Source: a virus
UHGV virus genome: UHGV-0216968
Length of the DNA stretch: 9,409 nt
Direction: 5' to 3' (one strand)
The position numbers were made by a program, and so were the translations under genes. Positions 1,723-9,409 of this stretch are shown one piece after another. Numbering within the stretch: the stretch's first letter is position 1; each line of letters starts with the position of its first letter. The notes below the pieces were generated by a model that worked only from the letters and a program-made list of their open reading frames with translations, had not been told where the DNA came from and ran no database searches.

Positions 1723-1820
1723 CTGTACAAAAAGCCAGTAAAAGCGATGCAAACCATGCCAAACCATCGTATAATTGCCACAAATTTAACGACAAGGCCG
1801 GAGTATATGAAAATTCTATT

Positions 1821-2122: not shown

Positions 2123-2156
2123 GTGGGTACCGTTTTAAAACGGTGGGTACTGTTTT
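2123..2156. promoter_or_regulatory. operator-like site upstream of alpA
   Basis: Direct repeat GTGGGTACCGTTTT (2123-2136) and GTGGGTACTGTTTT (2143-2156) enclosing a perfect 16-bp palindrome ACCGTTTTAAAACGGT (2129-2144), about 65 bp upstream of the alpA start. Confidence 0.4.
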
Positions 2157-2428: not shown

Positions 2429-2578
2429 TGGTGTGAGGCGTAACGCGATGAACATAACAAAAAGCGCCCCGTTGCCGGAGCGCCCTTGCGAACAATTAAC
2501 CTGCTGCGAAAAAAATGGATCAGTGCAGGGGAATTATATCAACCGTGTGGCGAAGCGCCACAATTGCCGGATAACGGG

Positions 2579-2607
2579 CAAAACAAAGGCGACCGGGGGC
2601 GGTCGCC
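2579..2607 (-). terminator. rho-independent terminator on the minus strand
   Basis: Perfect 8-bp inverted repeat GGCGACCG-ggg-CGGTCGCC (2588-2607). On the minus strand it is followed by UUUGUUUUG (plus-strand 2579-2587). Lies about 68 bp downstream of the minus-strand small ORF. Confidence 0.45.
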
Positions 2608-2674
2608 AATGGATATACACTAAACTTGAACGCATCACCAACAATGCCACATTTGCGGCTGGTGGGCAATGTGA

Positions 2675-2854
2675 TCAGTCAGATTTGGTTCGTTCCAAGG
2701 TTTGCAACGAGAGCTTTTTCCTGTGCTCTTTAAGGAATTTCTCAAGAGCAAACGAACAAGGTGCGAATCTTTCTGATTCATGTTCATGCGCTATATTTTT
2801 GCGTCGTCTCTTACGAGTTGGCGATGGTGTTTTGGTTGATTCTGTGTCGCTCAT
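2675..2854 (-). CDS. hypothetical small basic protein, 59 aa (MSDTESTKTPSPTRKRRRKNIAHEHESERFAPCSFALEKFLKEHRKKLSLQTLERTKSD)
   Basis: Hand-translated minus-strand ORF, below the size cut-off of the supplied ORF track. ATG at 2854-2852 with AGGA 7 nt upstream, TGA at 2677-2675. Sits 57 bp downstream of the RHH gene on the same strand and before a minus-strand terminator. No family recognised. Confidence 0.3.
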   Translation of the reverse strand: MSDTESTKTPSPTRKRRRKNIAHEHESERFAPCSFALEKFLKEHRKKLSLQTLERTKSD

Positions 2855-2911
2855 GGTGCTGTCCTGTAAAGCAATGCGCCTGCGTTCCTCAAACTATGGC
2901 GCTGATAGTGG

Positions 2912-3217
2912 CTATTCCTGCTCTTTGACCTTGCGTCGCTGGAGTTCTTCACGCGCGACGGTGACGAGTTGCCCGATCTCCTCGGCGGCTTTGACTCCGA
3001 TTTTTTCCACCTGCGCTAGGGCATCGAGCGAAGAAACCAGGAGGTTTTCTCCGCTTCCTTCTGCCTGGCGGCGGGCGATTTCACCGCGCATGGCGGTTAC
3101 TATGAATCCGGCGTTGCTTTCACCGTCCAGTTTTACGGATTCCATGCCTTCAATAACATCATGCGGGATCCGAGCTGTCAGTGATTGTGATTTTGCGTTT
3201 TTTGAACCTGTAGCCAT
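2912..3217 (-). CDS. ribbon-helix-helix-type DNA-binding protein, candidate island regulator, 101 aa
   Basis: ATG at 3217-3215 with GAGAGG about 7 nt upstream. The ORF-track start at 3232 is a TTG that contains this Shine-Dalgarno. N-terminal SLTARIPHDVIEGMESVKL fits the strand-helix pattern of Arc/CopG/MetJ RHH domains. Transcribed divergently from the downstream operon. Confidence 0.6.
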   Translation of the reverse strand: MATGSKNAKSQSLTARIPHDVIEGMESVKLDGESNAGFIVTAMRGEIARRQAEGSGENLLVSSLDALAQVEKIGVKAAEEIGQLVTVAREELQRRKVKEQE

Positions 3218-3238
3218 CTGTAATCCTCTCAATGAAAG

Positions 3239-3315
3239 TGTAAGACAATATACACATAAAAAGTCTTACATAAAAGCATTGACATGTAAGCCACCTATAA
3301 ATAAAGTTACTTACA
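3239..3315. promoter_or_regulatory. divergent promoter/operator region
   Basis: Rightward promoter TTGACA (3279-3284), 17 bp, TAAAGT (3302-3307). Leftward -10 candidate TATATT on the minus strand (3247-3252). Four copies of TGTAAG/CTTACA (3239-3244, 3265-3270, 3285-3290, 3310-3315) including the inverted repeat TGTAAGAC (3239-3246) / GTCTTACA (3263-3270). Hairpin CACCTTG-ttaatg-CAAGGTG at 3314-3333 in the rightward leader. Confidence 0.45.
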
Positions 3316-3413
3316 CCTTGTTAATGCAAGGTGCAGAAACGACGAAACCCCGCACTGTAGGAGCAGTAACGGGGCTTCTAACCACCAACGATAGCAAGAT
3401 TATCGAGGTAGCT

Positions 3414-3620
3414 ATGTTAAATCATACCACACACCCGCAAGGGCGGGACTCGCACAACCTGAATAAATACATCTGGCGTTTTATCGCCCTGAGCACGGCA
3501 CAACCGCGCGTGATTCACATCGTGGCCACCAGCGAACAGGAAGCCCGTCAACAATCACCGGCTGGCTGCGTGATGGTATTCGCCGCCCGTATTCGTCAGG
3601 AGGTGCACCATGTGCAATAA
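3414..3620 (+). CDS. hypothetical small protein, 68 aa
   Basis: ATG at 3414 with GAGG at 3405-3408. It is the C-terminal part of the implausible 395-aa track ORF. First gene after the rightward promoter and its stop overlaps the next start. Product unknown. Confidence 0.4.
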   Translation: MLNHTTHPQGRDSHNLNKYIWRFIALSTAQPRVIHIVATSEQEARQQSPAGCVMVFAARIRQEVHHVQ

Positions 3621-4071: not shown

Positions 4072-4371
4072 ATGAAACAGAAAATTTCTGGCTTTACTGC
4101 CAGCGGCCTCCCTCGGCCTGAAATCTGCCCCGGCGATATTTACCGGGATAAATACGGCAGCACGGTAATGATTAAAGGTGTTGCCGGACGGTGCGTTACT
4201 TACCGCCGTGAAGGTTATGAATATGACTGCGTGATGCCTGTTTATCAGTTCCGGCGTGATTTTTCTCTGGTACAGAACGCAACACGCGGTAAGCCCACCA
4301 GTTGGGAAAAAGCACGGGAAAATATTAAGAAAATAAAAAGCATGCTCAGCGCATCCAGAGGTAAAAAATGA
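4072..4371 (+). CDS. hypothetical protein, 99 aa
   Basis: ATG at 4072. Its stop overlaps the start of the replication gene (ATGA at 4368-4371). Basic C-terminus. No recognisable family. Confidence 0.5.
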   Translation: MKQKISGFTASGLPRPEICPGDIYRDKYGSTVMIKGVAGRCVTYRREGYEYDCVMPVYQFRRDFSLVQNATRGKPTSWEKARENIKKIKSMLSASRGKK

Positions 4372-5774
4372 AACTGGCACCGAACGTAAAACTGTTACCG
4401 AAAGATAAACACACTGAGGCGGTTATTTTTGCGGGTGATAATGCTCACTCCTTTGCAGAACATTACATGATTGCACAGGCCAAAAAAGCAGGCGATCCCA
4501 TCCCTCCGGTTTACCTGGGCCGTTATCAGTTAAGCGAACTGGACAATTTACAGATTGTTGATGAAGGACGATACAGAGCAAAGGTCATACGCGCCGGAAA
4601 CCTGGACGATATGCAGATGCTGACCATTGCCACCAAACTGGCGATCGCAGGTGTCCGGGAAGCGCGGTTACTTTCAGAGAATTTCGAACTACTGGAAGAC
4701 TGGAGCGAGCAACTACCGCGCCTTAAAGAAACCTGGGAACGTGGGGAAAGCCTGGTCATGAATGGTGGAAAGCGAAAAATCACACTTCCCATCTCATGGG
4801 GTTCTGAGGGATTCGACGCGCAGCAAAGCTACGTAATTAAGGGGCTTATTCCGGCTGAATCATTATGCAGCACCTACGGGGCCAGCGGCTCTTATAAATC
4901 GTTCCTGGCTATTTCCTGGTCGTGCCATGTTGCCACAGGTATGGCATGGGGAGGCCGCAGGGTCAGTAAGGGCGCGGTTATCTATATAGCTGGTGAAGGC
5001 AGCATGGGCGTAAAACGCCGCGTTAAGGCGTGGGAGATAACCCACGACAAGGTGGTTACAGATTTGTGCATCATTAACGCGCCTGTTTTCCCTGCATCGC
5101 CTGACTATGTGGAGCAGGTTATCAGAACTGCCGGACTTGTTAAGAGCAGAACGGGCGAAAATGTGCGGCTGATTGTGATAGACACGCTGGCCCGTTGCTT
5201 TGGTGGGAATGATGAAAATGATTCCCGTGATATGGGCGCATTTATCCAGGGGTGTGACGCGATAAAGCAGGCCACAGGGGCCACGGTGCTGGTGGTTCAC
5301 CATTCCGGCAAGGATGAAACAAAGGGGGCGCGTGGTTCCAGCGCATTCCGTGCCGCACTGGATGCAGAGTACCGAATCAGCCGGGAAAATTCAGACGTTA
5401 CAGCACTGGTGGCGGCGTGTACGAAGATGAAGGACGCAGAGGAGCCAAAAGAAAGCGCATACGACCTTAAAAGCGTGGAGGTGTTTACCGATACAGATGG
5501 CGAAGAGATTGTGTCCATGGTGGTGATTGACGTTCCCCGCGCCCCTGCTGAACTGGAACGCATCGAGGAGGCCGGGAACAAGACGGAAAATCACACGGCT
5601 TTATGGGGTTGTATCCGGTCACGTATACAGCATGGTGATAAATGCACGATCCCGCTGCTACGTGATGACATGAAAAAGCTGGGATATGACACAAAACACC
5701 TTAAACGATGGTTAGCCAAACTGGAAAAAGACGGCGTGATTTGCGTCGATGGGGATGATGTTCACCCACTGTAA
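4368..5774 (+). CDS. replication protein: RecA-superfamily RepA/DnaB-like ATPase, 468 aa
   Basis: ATG at 4368 with AGAGG at 4357-4361. Contains a P-loop-like YGASGSYKS, Walker B-like RLIVIDTL and a VLVVHHSGKD motif characteristic of RepA-type replicative helicases. The C-terminal ~60 aa look like a small DNA-binding domain. Iterons follow immediately downstream. Confidence 0.85.
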   Translation: MKLAPNVKLLPKDKHTEAVIFAGDNAHSFAEHYMIAQAKKAGDPIPPVYLGRYQLSELDNLQIVDEGRYRAKVIRAGNLDDMQMLTIATKLAIAGVREARLLSENFELLEDWSEQLPRLKETWERGESLVMNGGKRKITLPISWGSEGFDAQQSYVIKGLIPAESLCSTYGASGSYKSFLAISWSCHVATGMAWGGRRVSKGAVIYIAGEGSMGVKRRVKAWEITHDKVVTDLCIINAPVFPASPDYVEQVIRTAGLVKSRTGENVRLIVIDTLARCFGGNDENDSRDMGAFIQGCDAIKQATGATVLVVHHSGKDETKGARGSSAFRAALDAEYRISRENSDVTALVAACTKMKDAEEPKESAYDLKSVEVFTDTDGEEIVSMVVIDVPRAPAELERIEEAGNKTENHTALWGCIRSRIQHGDKCTIPLLRDDMKKLGYDTKHLKRWLAKLEKDGVICVDGDDVHPL

Positions 5775-5976: not shown

Positions 5977-6228
5977 ATGACCAGAAAAACCAGAGATAAG
6001 ACAGCACCAAAATATCGCGCATTAGACATGACAGAGCACGCCTTAAAGGTGGCAATCAGAACGATAGACCGCCACGCCGGAGAAGGATACGCGAAAGCAC
6101 ATCCCGAACTGATAAGCGCATTCATGACCACGACGGCGGCAAATTTTGCCACGCTGACAGAGCGGGAGATTGCCGAAGCGGAACAGGTAACAACAATCAA
6201 CGTTAAAACCGGAGAGGTGGAATCATGA
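5977..6228 (+). CDS. hypothetical protein, 83 aa
   Basis: ATG at 5977 preferred over the track start at 5845, because 5845-5976 is occupied by the iterons. Stop overlaps the SSB start (ATGA at 6225-6228). Confidence 0.4.
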   Translation: MTRKTRDKTAPKYRALDMTEHALKVAIRTIDRHAGEGYAKAHPELISAFMTTTAANFATLTEREIAEAEQVTTINVKTGEVES

Positions 6229-6647
6229 CAGCACAGATAGCGGCTTACGGGCGGCTGGTGGCTGACCCGCAGTTAAAGACCACCAGCAAAGGGACACAAA
6301 TGGCGATGGCGAGTATGGCGGTTCCCCTGCCGTGCAGCCAGGCAGATGACGGAACGGCGACGATGTGGTTATCTGTCCTGGCGTTTGGCAGACAGGCCGA
6401 CGCACTGGCAAAACACCACAAAGGCGAACTCCTGAGCGTGGCGGGTAACATGCAGGTGAGCCAGTGGACAGGCCAGAACGGCGAAACGCGGCAGGGCTGG
6501 CAGGTTATCGCAGACAGTGTAATCAGTGCCAGAACGGCGCGACCGGGCGGCAAAAAAGGTCAACAGGGCCAGGCCACTGACGCACTGAACAGGGCAAAAC
6601 AACAGTCAGGGAATGATGATCCGTACAGGGATGACATACCGTTTTAA
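6225..6647 (+). CDS. ssb: single-stranded DNA-binding protein, 140 aa
   Basis: GGAGAGGTGG (6211-6220) precedes the ATG at 6225. OB-fold-like N-terminal region (AYGRLVADPQLKTTSKG..., WLSVLAFGRQADAL...). Gly/Gln-rich linker and a C-terminal acidic tail DDPYRDDIPF, ending in the DDIPF-type motif that is the hallmark of bacterial and phage SSBs. Confidence 0.8.
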   Translation: MTAQIAAYGRLVADPQLKTTSKGTQMAMASMAVPLPCSQADDGTATMWLSVLAFGRQADALAKHHKGELLSVAGNMQVSQWTGQNGETRQGWQVIADSVISARTARPGGKKGQQGQATDALNRAKQQSGNDDPYRDDIPF

Positions 6648-6655
6648 GCAACGAG

Positions 6656-6687
6656 TGACAGAAGCCGGAGCAATCCGGCTTCTGTCA
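6656..6687 (+). other. very stable hairpin, possible terminator or attenuator between replication and capsid modules
   Basis: Perfect 14-bp stem TGACAGAAGCCGGA (6656-6669) / TCCGGCTTCTGTCA (6674-6687) with loop GCAA, 9 nt after the SSB stop. No U-tract follows. A second imperfect hairpin at 6717-6734 is preceded by A8 (6709-6716), so it is terminator-like on the minus strand. Confidence 0.4.
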
Positions 6688-6828
6688 GTTGAGTCCGTCA
6701 CACCACGCAAAAAAAAGGCCGGAATGTTCCGACCCCTTCATCACCAAAGAGAATAATTTATGTCTTTGAACTTGTAACGCTGCACAGAATGACACGTAAC
6801 GCCGGATAAATAAACGAAGATTGAAACT

Positions 6829-6858
6829 TTGCACACTATTGCATAGCAATGCATAAAG
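6829..6858. promoter_or_regulatory. phased TTGCA(C/T) repeats upstream of the capsid gene, candidate late promoter/activator site
   Basis: TTGCAC (6829-6834), TTGCAT (6839-6844) and ATGCAT (6849-6854) at exact 10-bp spacing, including the inverted repeat TGCAT-agca-ATGCA (6840-6853). Located about 65 bp upstream of the capsid gene start in an AT-rich intergenic region. Confidence 0.3.
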
Positions 6859-6919
6859 ATGCCGAACAAGGCTGATGATAAGATTAACGCGACACTTTTA
6901 CTAAGTATTAAGAGGTTGT

Positions 6920-7960
6920 ATGAGTGATTTATATTCGCCAGCTATGTTAATACAGGTTGTTAATGCCGAAGATATTCAATGGCAGATTAATTCTTTATTT
7001 ATAAACCTTTTTTTTAAGCGAGTCGTTACATTTGAGACGCGGGATATTGCGCTTGATATTATTGACGATCCAGACATCCCGATGGCTGCATTTTGTTCCC
7101 CTATGGTTGGTAGCAAAGTCTCACGCGATGAAGGCTACGAATCGAAAGTAATTCGTCCTGGCTACATGAAGCCAAAAAGTAGTATCGATCCAAATAAAAT
7201 AGCCGTTCGTCAACCAGGCGTATCACCGGAACAATTCAATGCATATTCATCACGCAGTTTCAAAATAAAGCGAGCGTTAGTAAGACAAGCGCAGGCAATT
7301 CGTGCGCGTATTGAGTGGCTTGCTGTTCAGGCGGTTACAACGGGGAAAAATATCATTGAAGGCGATGGAATTGAACGTTATGAACTGGACTGGAATATAA
7401 AACCACAAAATATTATCACGCAGTCCGGCGGTACGGAGTGGAGCGGTAGAGATTTATCAACATTTGATCCAAACGATGACATCGAAGAGTACGCAGAAAT
7501 CAGCGAAGGTACTACAAATATCATCGTAATGGGCCGCAACGTATGGAAAAAATACCGCGCCTTTAAAGCAGTAAAAGATTGCCTTGATACTCGACGGGGA
7601 TCTAATTCCGTTCTTGAAACGGCCCTGAAAAATCTTGGGGATTCTGTAAGCTTCAAGGGTTACGTTGGCGATGTTGCTATTGTGGTATATAGCGGACGTT
7701 ATACCGACGAGGACGGAACTGAAAGATATTTCCTTGATCCTGATTTGATGGTGCTTGGCAACACATCATTACAGGGCATCGTTGCCTACGGTGGCATTCA
7801 GGATCCTGAGTTAATCAGAATGGGGCTTACTAAAGCCGAACTTGCGCCGAAAAATTACATCGTACCAGGTGATCCGGCTATTGAGTACGTACAAACGCAC
7901 TCTGCACCACAGCCAATACCGGCCCGCATCAATCGTTTTGTTACCGTTCGCATTGGTTAA
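6920..7960 (+). CDS. major capsid protein, lambda gpE family, 346 aa
   Basis: AGAGG at 6911-6915 precedes the ATG. Blocks shared with lambda gpE as I recall it: NIITQSGGTEWSGRD, FDPNDDIEEYA, NIIVMG, FKAVKDCLDTRRGSNSVLETA, GDVAIVVYSG, MVLGNT, GDPA. Length is close to lambda E (341 aa). Confidence 0.92.
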   Translation: MSDLYSPAMLIQVVNAEDIQWQINSLFINLFFKRVVTFETRDIALDIIDDPDIPMAAFCSPMVGSKVSRDEGYESKVIRPGYMKPKSSIDPNKIAVRQPGVSPEQFNAYSSRSFKIKRALVRQAQAIRARIEWLAVQAVTTGKNIIEGDGIERYELDWNIKPQNIITQSGGTEWSGRDLSTFDPNDDIEEYAEISEGTTNIIVMGRNVWKKYRAFKAVKDCLDTRRGSNSVLETALKNLGDSVSFKGYVGDVAIVVYSGRYTDEDGTERYFLDPDLMVLGNTSLQGIVAYGGIQDPELIRMGLTKAELAPKNYIVPGDPAIEYVQTHSAPQPIPARINRFVTVRIG

Positions 7961-7969
7961 GGGGGAGCA

Positions 7970-8311
7970 ATGGCTACTCATTACACTGAACTCATGGCTG
8001 GCACTGAAGCACTGGTTACTACGTTGGGGATATTTTCAGCTAATAAAGGGGTAATTCCTGCATTTACGCCACTGATGCAAGAAGATGCAACTGGTGCACT
8101 GGTGGTATGGGATGGAACGAGCGCAGGCAAAGCTGTTTATGTTTCCGCTGTACAAATCGATACAGCGACAAAAACGCAGGCTCAGGTTTATAAAACCGGC
8201 GTCTTAAATGTTGATGCTCTGAACTGGCCTGAATCTGTAACACAACTATCAGCAAAAGTTGCTGCGTTTGTTGGCTCAGGTATTTCTGTTCAGCCGCTGG
8301 CACGTGTGTGA
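7970..8311 (+). CDS. head decoration protein, lambda gpD family, 113 aa
   Basis: Strong Shine-Dalgarno AAGGGGGAG before the ATG at 7970. Matches lambda gpD blocks: THY, TPLM, VVWDGT, YKTG...WPE, AAF.G.GIS. Size is close to lambda D (110 aa). Confidence 0.85.
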   Translation: MATHYTELMAGTEALVTTLGIFSANKGVIPAFTPLMQEDATGALVVWDGTSAGKAVYVSAVQIDTATKTQAQVYKTGVLNVDALNWPESVTQLSAKVAAFVGSGISVQPLARV

Positions 8312-8320
8312 GGTACGAGA

Positions 8321-8665
8321 ATGATTGAAAGAGATAGTCAGCTACGAGAGCTATTAGATATCGATGATAAAATGCGCTTAAGCGAGCGTCTTGTCGATAT
8401 GGATCAGGTAGTGGAGCTTACAACCCTTAGCCGTCGCACATTGCTAAACCTTGAGGCTCGCGGAGAGTTCCCCGAACGCGTACAGGTTACGAAAGGCCGC
8501 AAGGCATGGTATTTAAGCGAAGTTGTTGCGTGGATTAACAACATTCCGCGCGCATCAAATTATTGCCTTGTTCCCACCCCCGAAAAACCTGATGCGGCGT
8601 TATGCCTCAAGATTGAACGCGCCAGGCGTAATGCCCTGAAAGGGCGCAATAAGTTGATTGGTTGA
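8321..8665 (+). CDS. second AlpA/excisionase-like HTH protein, 114 aa
   Basis: GAGGT at 8311-8315 precedes the ATG. Central region VVELTTLSRRTLLNLEARGEFPERVQVTKGRKAWYLSEVVAWI is a MerR/AlpA-type HTH. Stop lies 26 bp before the cosQ-like sequence. Confidence 0.7.
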   Translation: MIERDSQLRELLDIDDKMRLSERLVDMDQVVELTTLSRRTLLNLEARGEFPERVQVTKGRKAWYLSEVVAWINNIPRASNYCLVPTPEKPDAALCLKIERARRNALKGRNKLIG

Positions 8666-8691
8666 TGAAATTAGGGCCCGTTCTGGCTGGC

Positions 8692-8756
8692 GGGTCCTTT
8701 CCGGCGATCCGGCAGGCTACGGGGCGGCGACCTCGCGGGTTTTCGCTATTTATGAG
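8692..8756 (+). other. lambda-type cohesive end site (cosQ-like, cosN, proximal cosB)
   Basis: GGGCGGCGACCT at 8722-8733 equals the lambda 12-nt cohesive end. Upstream CGGGTCCTTTCCGGCGATCCGGCAGGCTACG matches the lambda right end with 3 substitutions. Downstream CGCGGGTTTTCGCTATTTATGA matches lambda left-end nt 13-34. Comparison is from memory of the lambda sequence. Confidence 0.8.
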
Positions 8757-8866
8757 CCTTTTTCGGGTGCTGGTGGTGGTTTTGTTGTTCGCTCTATCTC
8801 TATGAATAAAAAGGAAAAGATAAAGCCAATACACCAACCTGAAACATTACTTAAGTGGGGATATTG

Positions 8867-9409
8867 ATGAAATCGCACCTGATGAACAAAAAAAACATGG
8901 CGCAAAGCTGCCGTGTAAGTGCGACAGCGTTCGACAAGTGGGGAGTGACTCCCGTTGAACGTAAAGGCCGCGAGGCGTTTTATGATGTTGCCAGCGTAAT
9001 AGACAATCGGGTTAGCAATGCAATTAACCAGATTACAGACGACAAAGGCGAGATTGATGATGATGAACTCCTACGAGTCAGGATCAGATTGCTGACAGCA
9101 CAGGCAGAGGCGCAGGAGCTTAAAAACGAGCGCGAACGCGGCGACGTTATTGATACAGCGTTTTGTATATACGTGCTTTCAAAATTGGCGAGTCAGATTT
9201 CTTCAATCATGGACAGCCTGCCGCTTGCCATGACAAGGAAGTTTCCCGACATGAAGCCGTCTATGCTGGATGGACTGAAAAAAGAAGTTATCAGAGCCTG
9301 TAACGCATGCGCAAAACTTGACGAAAACATACCGCTGATGCTGTCCGATTATCTGATGGAAACTGCCGGAAACGTACCGGATAAGTTGCAGCCGAATAAA
9401 GATAAGTAA
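8867..9409 (+). CDS. terminase small subunit, lambda Nu1 family, 180 aa
   Basis: ATG at 8867; alternative starts are GTG 8855 and ATG 8882. The N-terminus (MNKKNMAQSCRVSATAFDKWG...FYDVASVIDNR) parallels the Nu1 winged HTH (MEVNKKQLADIFGASIRTIQNWQ...LYDSAAVIKWY). The C-terminal half is strongly Nu1-like (RLLTAQAEAQELKNERERGDVIDTAFCIYVLSKLASQISSIMDSLPLAMTRKFPDMK). Stop falls at the window end. Confidence 0.88.
   Translation: MKSHLMNKKNMAQSCRVSATAFDKWGVTPVERKGREAFYDVASVIDNRVSNAINQITDDKGEIDDDELLRVRIRLLTAQAEAQELKNERERGDVIDTAFCIYVLSKLASQISSIMDSLPLAMTRKFPDMKPSMLDGLKKEVIRACNACAKLDENIPLMLSDYLMETAGNVPDKLQPNKDK

What the first reader, a model, noticed from the sequence alone, without database searches (positions are those of the whole stretch)
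8321..8665. Second AlpA-like HTH protein between the decoration gene and cos
The island already has a canonical alpA next to int. This second, longer AlpA/excisionase-type HTH protein sits inside the morphogenesis block and ends 26 bp before cosQ. It could be a late-gene activator. It could equally be a cos-binding accessory factor that helps redirect packaging, by analogy with PICI proteins that redirect packaging, although I cannot establish homology to those by eye.
Basis: inference. Interest (0 to 1): 0.55.

Follow-up and report, generated by a model that had tools for sequence, protein, structure and literature searches.

The report
Late-module AlpA-type regulator beside cos
A second small DNA-binding protein in an E. 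coli phage-satellite island is real and belongs to the AlpA/excisionase family, and it most likely switches on the island's own capsid-gene operon rather than steering DNA packaging, a modest and testable addition to satellite regulation.

Summary
ORF 8321-8665 (114 aa) is a conserved AlpA-family winged-helix gene. It lies 9 bp after the decoration gene and ends exactly 26 bp before cosQ. The window is a Gram-negative PICI at tRNA-Pro.

The packaging reading is not supported.
- There is no detectable sequence homology to Rpp.
- The same TerS/cosB cassette occurs in 38 islands that lack this gene.
- The gene also occurs in islands with no TerS and a lambda-type cosB.
- Nothing between its stop codon and cosQ is conserved.

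The gene is always inherited as capsid - decoration - HTH. Every such module is preceded by a terminator, 3-5 helically phased direct repeats (WTTGCAY/TATACA, 10-11 bp period) and an extended -10 with no -35. In 2.9 million viral contigs this array occurs only upstream of these modules. It persists while the int-proximal regulator, the replicase and the TerS all change.

Best explanation, by inference only: a module-specific, self-amplifying late-operon activator that binds the array head-to-tail, as Xis and BldC-type proteins do. This resembles P4 delta in function.

A second excisionase or an antiterminator role remain possible. Novelty and interest are modest.

The parts
6656..6687 (+). Perfect 14-bp-arm hairpin after ssb. 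With the adjacent minus-strand terminator (about 6709-6735) it separates the replication module from the late module.
   Evidence: I1: 14-nt arms, 100% complementary; sequence. Equivalent hairpins lie upstream of the array in all other loci.
6828..6854 (+). Array of three direct repeats at 10-bp period: TTTGCAC (6828-6834), ATTGCAT (6838-6844) and AATGCAT (6848-6854). Proposed operator for the 8321-8665 protein. The units lie at about -63 to -37 relative to the inferred start.
   Evidence: only multi-unit array in the window apart from a 2-unit match at 1747-1762. Conserved across genera. Exclusive to this position in IMG/VR.
6876..6884 (+). Extended -10 element TGATAAGAT (TGnTAnnAT) of the inferred late promoter. 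There is no recognisable -35.
   Evidence: Read from the sequence. The same TGnTAnnAT or TAnnAT element lies 12-25 nt after the last repeat in all compared loci. The consensus scan did not call it, so it is an inference.
6920..7960 (+). Lambda E-like major capsid gene, first gene of the late module.
   Evidence: Pfam Phage_cap_E E=2.3e-41; phrog_29.
7970..8311 (+). Lambda D-like head decoration gene.
   Evidence: Pfam HDPD E=2.6e-16; phrog_49.
8321..8665 (+). The finding: a late-module AlpA-family winged-helix protein of 114 aa. It has an N-terminal helix (2-20), a wHTH (27-73), a conserved WINNIP linker and a basic C-terminal helix (92-107).
8673..8698 (+). 10-bp-stem hairpin whose 3' arm is cosQ, followed by UUUCC. 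Possibly a weak terminator at the end of the mcp-deco-HTH unit.
   Evidence: In the window it is not better than shuffles (z = -0.87). Analogous hairpins or canonical terminators occur in other lineages.
8692..8733 (+). cosQ (8692-8698) to cosN (8722-8733), shared with lambdoid helper phages.
8771..8835 (+). Island-type cosB region: TGGTGGTGGTTTTGTTGTT (8771-8789) and CCAATACACC (8826-8835). It co-varies with the presence of the island TerS, not with the HTH gene.
8867..9409 (+). Full-length Nu1-type terminase small subunit, 38% identical to lambda Nu1 over 180 aa. The listed GTG at 8855 is probably too early.

Best explanation
The 8321-8665 protein is a distinct, extended subfamily of AlpA/Xis-type winged-helix DNA-binding proteins. 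It is an integral part of a mobile late module of enterobacterial phage-inducible chromosomal islands. The module runs: terminator, phased repeat array, extended -10 promoter, capsid gene, decoration gene, this HTH gene, and then cos.

I propose that it is the module's own transcription factor.
- Low read-through or basal transcription makes a little protein.
- The protein binds head-to-tail to the 3-5 helically phased WTTGCAY/TATACA repeats. In the window these are at 6828-6854, about -63 to -37.
- It then recruits RNA polymerase to a promoter that has an extended -10 but no -35. This amplifies expression of the capsid, decoration and HTH genes, and of terS where transcription continues through cos.

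Its position next to cos follows from module order: the late module always abuts the cos cassette. It does not indicate a role in cos recognition, which the island's own Nu1-type TerS and island-type cosB can account for.

**Shown here:** family membership, fold, strict co-inheritance with the capsid and decoration genes, the existence, conservation and exclusivity of the array, and independence from TerS and cosB.

**Inferred only:** that this protein binds the array, and that the effect is activation.
For: **Family and fold**
- Pfam Phage_AlpA and phrog_2790.
- hhalign probability 85% to the island's AlpA.
- The AF2 model has a confident wHTH.

**Linkage to the capsid and decoration genes**
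- capsid(346-347 aa) - HDPD(112-113 aa) - HTH is invariant in every context examined, down to 48% identity.
- 79 of 80 IMG/VR loci with this capsid clade carry the gene.

**The array**
- 3-5 units at 10-11 bp period, then an extended -10 after 12-25 nt. The offsets differ by about one helical turn. This holds in all ten diverse loci, while the surrounding intergenic DNA is not conserved.
- An IMG/VR-wide pattern scan found 88 arrays. Every one where the sequence continues lies 70-89 bp before this capsid gene. The HTH gene is present wherever the locus is long enough to show it, except in one capsid recombinant.

**Other candidate binders vary while the array stays**
- The int-proximal regulator is AlpA or HTH_17, only 8-25% identical between loci. 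It has its own, different repeats.
- The replicase is a RepA helicase, a D5 primase or DUF927.
- TerS is present or absent.

**Contrast and covariation**
- Late modules without this gene (CFT073 type, 78 scored) show no chain of 3 or more phased repeats. They have a sigma70-like promoter instead.
- In the one clade whose recognition helix changes from SRRT to SRQT, the repeat core changes from TRCA to AGAC/GTGC, while phasing and position are kept.
Against: - No binding or expression data exist. The link between the array and the protein is co-inheritance within one vertically transmitted module, which would also arise if a host factor bound the array.
- CFT073-type promoters, which lack this gene, also contain TTGCA-type motifs (TTTGCAAC, and the palindrome ATTGCAT-AAA-ATGCAAT). 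A shared host or helper factor that recognises TTGCA is therefore not excluded.
- A regulator encoded last in the operon it activates needs a separate trigger, which I have not identified.
- The generic promoter scan did not call the proposed promoter.
- My generic phased-repeat detector gave chains of 3 in only 5 of 10 loci, because the units are degenerate. 2.4% of shuffles reached 3.
- The covariation rests on a single clade.
- The closest characterised homologue is an excisionase.
Confidence: 0.5

Rival explanations
1. cos-binding or packaging accessory. The protein binds near cosQ, cosN or cosB, or binds TerS, and helps direct terminase to island DNA. This would make it an Rpp-like or IHF-like helper of packaging specificity.
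For: - The gene always ends 26-70 bp upstream of cosQ.
- From memory, in HK97-type cos phages an accessory gene (HNH) next to cos is required for packaging.
Against: - No sequence or profile similarity to RppA (hhalign 0.08%) or Nu1 (1.3%). There is no PDB sequence hit to 6HLK or 6HN7. RppC is no closer than generic MerR proteins.
- Rpp lies downstream of cos, in the terS position. This gene lies upstream of cosQ.
- 38 of 80 CFT073-type islands carry a TerS mostly 80-89% identical to the window's, with the same cosB elements (TGGTGGTGGT, AATACACC), and none has this gene.
- This gene occurs in islands without TerS. In Kluyvera (L006) the cosB of such an island is lambda-type R3/I1.
- The DNA between its stop codon and cosQ is not conserved.
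- No phased repeat array lies near cos.
Confidence: 0.07
2. A second recombination directionality factor (excisionase) of the island, or one used in crosstalk with other integrases.
For: - PHROG annotates the family as 'excisionase and transcriptional regulator'.
- In EcCIMP1 a second AlpA is discussed in connection with excisionase crosstalk (PMC11773190).
- After circularisation the gene lies about 1.3 kb from attP.
Against: - Every island already has an AlpA or HTH_17 gene beside int.
- This gene is never int-linked. It keeps its place after the decoration gene even when the integrase type and integration site change: tRNA-Pro, fis, a prophage capsid gene.
- No repeat array of its candidate site type lies near attL or attR in a full island with flanks (L002).
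- It carries conserved N- and C-terminal extensions that are absent from 57-75-aa excisionases.
Confidence: 0.15
3. A regulator with a different target or mode. One version is a processive antiterminator, like Pseudomonas aeruginosa AlpA, that carries RNA polymerase through the hairpin or terminator in front of cosQ into terS. Another is a regulator of helper-phage genes.
For: - From memory, AlpA-family proteins can be Q-like antiterminators (P. aeruginosa AlpA).
- Hairpins or canonical intrinsic terminators lie between this gene and cosQ in several lineages.
- The protein has a conserved basic C-terminal helix beyond the wHTH.
Against: - The array lies upstream of the -35 position, not between -35 and -10 or at a pause site.
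- Many islands with this gene have no terS downstream to read into.
- No array of this type was found in phage genomes: 0 of 88 IMG/VR matches lay outside the module, and the 50,697 phage records gave only a 25-nt chance-level match (E=0.1) in virulent Klebsiella, Escherichia and Proteus phages, none lambdoid.
- The window's own hairpin is not better than shuffles.
Confidence: 0.15

Closest known systems
AlpA of Gram-negative PICIs (EcCICFT073 AlpA; Pfam PF05930)
   Same: - Same Pfam family and wHTH fold.
- AlpA is a PICI-encoded activator of its own promoter (PMC6092414).
- Arrays of 10-bp-phased direct repeats lie upstream of alpA in CFT073, and a 2-copy repeat lies upstream of alpA in the window.
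   Different: - Only about 22% identical to the window's AlpA.
- 114-127 aa, with an extra N-terminal helix and a conserved C-terminal helix.
- Encoded in the late module after the decoration gene, not beside int.
- Different candidate operator (WTTGCAY, against GTGGGTACYGTTTT).
- The literature states that typical E. coli PICIs encode only one AlpA (PMC11773190).
GIsul2 excisionase (PDB 8C3T) and other Xis/RDF winged-helix proteins (RdfS 8DGL, Pukovnik Xis 4J2N, TorI 1Z4H)
   Same: - From memory, RdfS and lambda-type Xis bind phased direct repeats as oligomers.
   Different: - No linkage to an integrase.
- No candidate sites at att.
- Two extra conserved helices.
- Co-transcribed with capsid genes.
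BldC (PDB 6AMA/6AMK), a MerR/Xis-like developmental regulator
   Same: - From the literature, BldC regulates promoters by cooperative head-to-tail binding to variable numbers of direct repeats. That is the mode proposed here.
   Different: - Unrelated organism.
- 15-20% identity.
- No mobile-element context.
P4 delta (and P2 Ogr), a satellite late-gene activator encoded inside the late operon it activates (sid-delta-psu, next to cos)
   Same: - Functional analogy, from memory: a satellite late operon that encodes capsid-modifying or decoration proteins together with its own positive regulator, transcribed towards cos.
   Different: - Delta and Ogr are zinc-finger proteins that act at a dyad at about -55. 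This protein is a wHTH with no conserved Cys4.
- No homology.
Rpp (RppA/B/C), the PICI protein that redirects helper TerS (PDB 6HLK, 6HN7)
   Same: - A PICI-encoded wHTH protein of the MerR-like fold class, encoded next to cos.
   Different: - No sequence or profile similarity.
- Rpp is 139-154 aa with six helices and lies downstream of cos in the terS position. This protein lies upstream of cosQ.
- This island has its own full-length TerS.
- Each of the two late-module types is found with terS, with rppA or with neither, so the gene's occurrence is independent of the cos cassette.

Membership tests
AlpA family (Pfam PF05930, MerR-like winged helix) | Sequence match above the family's curated threshold | tested here: met
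   32.4 bits against a cut-off of 21, E=8.7e-8, profile positions 2-51 of 51. hhalign probability 85% to the island's AlpA.
AlpA family (Pfam PF05930, MerR-like winged helix) | Winged helix-turn-helix fold (helix-helix-beta hairpin-helix) | tested here: met
   [not shown]
AlpA family (Pfam PF05930, MerR-like winged helix) | Small single-domain protein (about 60-80 aa) encoded next to an integrase | tested here: not met
   114-127 aa with conserved N- and C-terminal helices. The gene lies 6.6 kb from int, after the decoration gene, in all contexts.
Excisionase / recombination directionality factor | Genetic linkage to the cognate integrase and att site | tested here: not met
   A separate AlpA or HTH_17 gene lies beside int in every island. 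This gene keeps its late-module position across three integrase and site types.
Excisionase / recombination directionality factor | Binding sites in an att arm | tested here: inconclusive
   No phased WTTGCAY-type array lies near attL or attR in L002 or in the window. The true recognition sequence is unknown.
Excisionase / recombination directionality factor | Stimulates Int-mediated excision | not testable with these tools
   Needs excision assays with a deletion mutant.
Rpp (redirecting phage packaging) | Homology to RppA/B/C | tested here: not met
   [not shown]
Rpp (redirecting phage packaging) | Encoded downstream of cos in the terS-equivalent position; 139-154 aa | tested here: not met
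   The gene lies upstream of cosQ and is 114-127 aa. The terS position is occupied by a Nu1 homologue.
Rpp (redirecting phage packaging) | Forms a heterocomplex with helper TerS and binds island cos | not testable with these tools
   Needs two-hybrid or pull-down assays and EMSA. Co-occurrence data argue against an obligatory link to any cos cassette.
Terminase small subunit (Nu1) DNA-binding domain | Homology to the Nu1 N-terminal wHTH plus a C-terminal TerL-binding region | tested here: not met
   [not shown]
P4 delta / P2 Ogr late activators | Cys4 zinc-finger activator | tested here: not met
   Only two Cys residues, and they are not conserved in P0093 or P0089. The fold is wHTH. The relation is a functional analogy only.
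AlpA-type processive antiterminator (P. aeruginosa AlpA) | Binding element within the promoter or initially transcribed region, and a terminator that is bypassed | tested here: inconclusive
   The array lies upstream of -35. Hairpins or terminators precede cosQ in several lineages, but the window's is not significant.

The most novel reading that the evidence does not exclude
The capsid - decoration - HTH unit with its phased-repeat promoter is a self-contained, positively autoregulated late switch that moves as a cassette between satellites. It would be built from an excisionase-type fold and would be functionally convergent with P4 delta. In the stronger version, the protein also acts beyond its own promoter. 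It might carry RNA polymerase through the cosQ hairpin or terminator into terS, AlpA-antiterminator style. Or it might time production of satellite-encoded capsid subunits that interfere with, or substitute for, the helper's E and D proteins, which would matter in islands embedded in the helper's capsid gene.
Probability: 0.15. Interest if true: 0.6.

Novelty: new variant of a known kind. Interest (0 to 1): 0.35.

Why it matters
Gram-negative PICIs are currently described with a single AlpA master activator beside int. Their captured capsid and decoration genes have no known function or regulation: deleting them in EcCICFT073 did not change transfer (PMC6092414).

If this protein is a dedicated late-module regulator, about 7.5% of complete E. 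coli genomes (408 of 5426) carry a second, separable regulatory layer in these satellites. Its promoter and operator are defined and easy to test.

It would also add a case of an Xis/AlpA fold used as a promoter-array activator.

For annotation, the result warns against two shortcuts: calling cos-adjacent wHTH genes packaging factors, and calling every AlpA-family hit an excisionase.

Tried and rejected
2. **Phage homologues.** tblastn against 50,697 phage records found none. NCBIfam has no model.
3. **The EcCICFT073 gene in the same slot.** This 137-aa protein is unrelated and has no Pfam hit. The slot before cos is therefore not reserved for one function.
4. **The repeats as replication iterons.** Rejected. 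The window and L002 have identical arrays but unrelated replicases. D5 and DUF927 primase islands also keep the array.
5. **The repeats as sites for the int-proximal AlpA.** Rejected as unlikely. That regulator is replaced by unrelated alleles or by HTH_17 while the array is kept, and it has different repeats at its own promoter.
6. **The repeats as a sigma54 promoter.** Rejected on reading the sequence: there is no GG at -24 and the spacing is wrong.
7. **The repeats as TerS R sites.** Rejected, because they are present in islands without TerS.
8. **A simple regex chain scan for arrays** missed several degenerate arrays. The generic phased-repeat detector gave only partial separation from shuffles. 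The cross-genus alignment is the stronger evidence.
9. **The wider protein family.** The all-against-library HMMER search found only a handful of full-length clusters. The other roughly 950 hits cover the wHTH only.
10. **Rfam.** Nothing was found in the window except tRNA-Pro.

Full report
**What the window is**

The 9.4-kb window is a Gram-negative phage-inducible chromosomal island (PICI) inserted next to tRNA-Pro, between yejM and yejO in related E. coli genomes. Its genes are:

| Coordinates | Gene |
|---|---|
| 481-1722 | int |
| 2222-2428 | alpA |
| 4368-5774 | RepA-type helicase |
| 6225-6647 | ssb |
| 6920-7960 | lambda E-like capsid gene |
| 7970-8311 | lambda D-like decoration gene |
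| 8321-8665 | the ORF in question |
| 8692-8733 | cos |
| 8867-9409 | full-length Nu1-type TerS |

The TerS is 38% identical to lambda Nu1 over 180 aa.

**Checking the observation**

The ORF is real. It is 114 aa with an ATG start and a GAGG ribosome-binding site.
- It passes the Pfam Phage_AlpA threshold at 32.4 bits against 21, over residues 23-72.
- It matches phrog_2790 at E=1.3e-37.
- cosQ (GGGTCCT) is at 8692-8698 and cosN at 8722-8733.
- The cos core is 92-97% identical to lambdoid phages.
- Orthologues share 46-80% identity across at least nine enterobacterial genera. The gene is in 408 of 5426 complete E. coli genomes, annotated only as an 'HTH' or 'AlpA family' regulator.
- Most orthologues are 127 aa. 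The window's allele lacks 13 N-terminal residues.

**The protein itself**

An AlphaFold2 model built on 41 homologues has mean pLDDT 77.8, and 85-90 in the core. It shows an N-terminal helix (2-20), a winged helix-turn-helix (27-73), a Pro-rich linker that starts with an invariant WINNIP motif, and a basic C-terminal helix (92-107).

| Comparison | Result |
|---|---|
| PDB by sequence | only 8C3T, the AlpA-family excisionase of GIsul2, E=4.5e-10 |
| hhalign, island AlpA | 85% probability |
| hhalign, lambda Nu1 | 1.3% |
| hhalign, RppA | 0.08% |

Foldseek gives the same ranking. The protein is therefore an AlpA/Xis-type protein. Its resemblance to Rpp and TerS is only the shared MerR-like fold.

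The full-length family is narrow. In a search of 1.8 billion representatives, only a few clusters cover the N- and C-terminal extensions. The other roughly 950 hits are generic wHTH matches. No phage record encodes a homologue.

**Testing the packaging idea**

In the characterised system, rpp lies downstream of cos in the terS position. Rpp is 139-154 aa, and Rpp-TerS recognises an island-specific cosB (PMC6739421 and PMC9026076). Here the terS position holds a complete Nu1 homologue. The DNA after cosN carries island-type elements: TGGTGGTGGTTTTGTTGTT at 8771-8789 and CCAATACACC at 8826-8835.

Those elements follow TerS, not the HTH gene.
- They are present in the TerS-bearing islands of E. 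coli, Kosakonia and Superficieibacter, and absent from the TerS-less islands.
- The TerS-less Kluyvera island, which still has the HTH gene, carries a lambda-like R3/I1/R2 cosB.
- Among 80 IMG/VR loci with the EcCICFT073-type late module, 38 carry a TerS mostly 80-89% identical to the window's, and most of these have the same cosB elements. Another 19 carry RppA. None has the HTH gene. In this module type an unrelated 137-aa protein sits before cos.
- Among 80 loci with the window's capsid clade, 79 have the HTH gene, and only 45 of those show a TerS homologue within the fetched locus.

The sequence between the HTH stop codon and cosQ is not conserved. No repeat array lies near cos. The cos cassette and this gene are therefore independent units, and proximity alone is the only argument for a packaging role.

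**What does travel with the gene**

In every context examined, the order capsid (346-347 aa) - decoration (112-113 aa) - HTH is kept with gaps of 6-11 bp. This includes the most divergent members at 48-55% identity, and islands at tRNA-Pro, at fis and inside prophage capsid genes.

Upstream of the capsid gene there is always:
- a terminator-like hairpin after the replication genes (window 6656-6687);
- an array of 3-5 direct repeats at 10-11 bp period, with unit WTTGCAY or TATACA;
- after a further 12-25 nt, a TGnTAnnAT or TAnnAT element with no usable -35. The offsets differ by about one helical turn.

In the window the units are TTTGCAC (6828-6834), ATTGCAT (6838-6844) and AATGCAT (6848-6854). 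The extended -10 is TGATAAGAT (6876-6884). The units therefore sit at about -63 to -37, which is the usual place for activator sites.

A pattern scan of 2.9 million IMG/VR contigs for TATACA-N2-3-ATTGCAY-N3-4-TTGCAY returned 88 usable loci. In every one where the sequence continues, the array lies 70-89 bp before this capsid gene. The HTH gene follows wherever the locus is long enough to show it. The single exception is a recombinant between the island capsid gene and a prophage E gene. BLAST of the promoter region against phage genomes finds only a 25-nt chance-level match.

**Who binds the array**

The candidates that can be excluded by comparison are those that vary while the array stays.
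- *The int-proximal regulator.* It is an AlpA in some islands and an HTH_17 protein in others, with 8-25% pairwise identity. It has different repeats at its own promoter: GTGGGTACYGTTTT twice at 2123-2156 in the window, and five 10-bp-phased ACAAC units in CFT073.
- *The replicase.* It is a RepA helicase, a D5-type primase or DUF927. The window and L002 have identical arrays but unrelated replicases. The repeats are therefore not iterons.
- *TerS.* It is optional.

The only DNA-binding protein that is constant with the array is the HTH protein. Its recognition helix (TTLSRRT) is invariant in all clades that keep the TRCA core.

In the one clade where the helix reads SRQT (P0103), the array is still five phased units at the same place. 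The cores have changed to AGAC and GTGC, identically in two independent contigs. That is one covariation event, suggestive only.

From the literature, Xis-type and BldC-type winged-helix proteins bind exactly such phased direct repeats as head-to-tail multimers. RdfS and BldC are among the closest structural matches.

The contrast set fits as well. None of the 78 scored CFT073-type modules, which lack the gene, has a chain of three phased repeats. They have a sigma70-like promoter (TTGCAT/TTGCTC, 16-17 nt, TATAAT) with a 17-bp palindrome, and often a PerC gene upstream.

**Best explanation and its limits**

I conclude that the gene most likely encodes the late module's own transcription factor. 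It would bind the phased array and activate an otherwise weak extended -10 promoter, giving positive feedback on the capsid, decoration and HTH genes.

This arrangement is functionally analogous to P4's sid-delta-psu operon, although there is no homology and no zinc finger.

The binding and the sign of regulation are inferences. The evidence is co-inheritance, exclusion of alternatives, site geometry and fold analogy. Weak points:
- A host factor could bind the array.
- TTGCA-type motifs also occur in the promoters that lack the HTH gene.
- The initial trigger is unidentified.
- My generic repeat detector separated the arrays from shuffles only partly.
- The consensus promoter scan did not call the promoter.

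I put this explanation at about 0.5. The alternatives are a second excisionase at about 0.15, an antiterminator or helper-directed regulator at about 0.15, and a cos or packaging accessory at about 0.07.

**Comparison with what is known**

The protein is a member of the AlpA family by sequence and fold. It fails the family's usual contextual features of small size and an int-adjacent position. It is not an Rpp and not a TerS.

I found no description of a late-zone AlpA paralogue in the searchable literature.
- The PICI gene-content survey assigns Phage_AlpA to the integration zone (PMC10111431).
- A 2025 paper states that typical E. coli PICIs encode only one AlpA (PMC11773190).

I therefore rate it a new variant of a known kind, of modest interest (0.35).

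The decisive experiments are simple: EMSA or footprinting on 6790-6919 against the cos fragment, a P_late reporter with and without the protein, and an in-frame deletion scored separately for late transcription, excision and packaging.

Noticed in passing
window 8673-8698; L005 6340-6385; L006 6340-6380; L004 6350-6400; L007 and L003 (CFT073) just before cosQ: In several lineages, non-homologous sequence upstream of cos is complementary to cosQ (GGGTCCT and its flanks). It forms a hairpin whose 3' arm is cosQ, followed by UUUCC. Cedecea and CFT073 have canonical intrinsic terminators there instead. The window's hairpin is not better than shuffles (z -0.87), but L004, L006, L007 and CFT073 give z -2.4 to -3.0.
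   Followed up: partly
window 8658-8867: A 69-aa ORF, annotated in RefSeq as hypothetical protein WP_001440045.1, spans cosQ, cosN and cosB. It would be cut in packaged DNA, so it is probably a spurious gene call.
   Followed up: no
window 2123-2156; L090 (CFT073) 8195-8245 and 8440-8490: The int-proximal alpA genes have their own upstream direct repeats. The window has GTGGGTACYGTTTT twice, 20 bp apart. CFT073 has five ACAAC-containing units at exactly 10-bp spacing, plus GACACAA repeats. These may be allele-specific AlpA operators.
   Followed up: partly
L289-L368 (IMG/VR) compared with L091-L170: The cos cassette is shuffled independently of the late module. Both the HTH-type and the CFT073-type (orf68 - capsid - decoration - 137-aa protein) late modules are found with a Nu1-type TerS or with nothing downstream; RppA was seen only after the CFT073-type module. 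PerC is present upstream in only about half of the CFT073-type modules.
   Followed up: yes
L004 8275-9066; L007 7990-8787; L086/L173 (11360-12124 in L173): Several islands that carry the HTH module are inserted in a prophage lambda-E-type capsid gene. A capsid fragment (residues about 83-346) and then FI and tail genes follow the island. These are helper-embedded PICIs of the type described in PMC10111431.
   Followed up: partly
L206 4144-5355 (minus strand in locus coordinates): A hybrid capsid gene. The island-type repeat array and capsid N-terminal part are fused to a lambda-E-type C-terminal part, followed by prophage FI, FII, Z, U and V genes. This looks like a recombination product between an island and its helper.
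   Followed up: partly
L003 340-440 (CFT073) and L289-L368: The CFT073-type late promoter has a 17-bp palindrome, ATTGCAT-AAA-ATGCAAT, overlapping a -35-like TTGCAT, 16 nt before a perfect TATAAT. The first gene is a conserved 68-aa ORF with no significant Pfam hit (one sub-threshold match, E=0.078). It may be that module's own regulator, but this was not tested.
   Followed up: no
window 1745-1775: A conserved promoter-like segment lies just after int: ATGCAAACCATGCCAAACCATCGTATAAT, with a tandem AAACCAT repeat abutting a perfect -10. It is also present in L001 and L002, although the downstream ORFs differ.
   Followed up: no
window 8855-8890: The mechanical ORF for terS starts at GTG 8855. 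RefSeq relatives start at the ATG equivalent to 8867. The alignment with lambda Nu1 begins at the Met at 8882 (MNKKN against VNKKQ). The true start is probably 8867 or 8882.
   Followed up: partly
window 4368-5774 compared with L002 8251-10065: The window's closest relatives differ in the replication module: a RepA-family helicase (AAA_25) against a D5-type primase. The flanking int, alpA, ssb and late modules are 97-100% identical at the protein level. This is a clear case of module replacement within the island.
   Followed up: partly
window 2433-3620: The 395-aa ORF listed here is probably not a gene. In relatives, RefSeq annotates a YlcI/YnfO-family gene on the minus strand (window 2912-3232), a small minus-strand ORF and an Icd-like gene in this stretch.
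   Followed up: no
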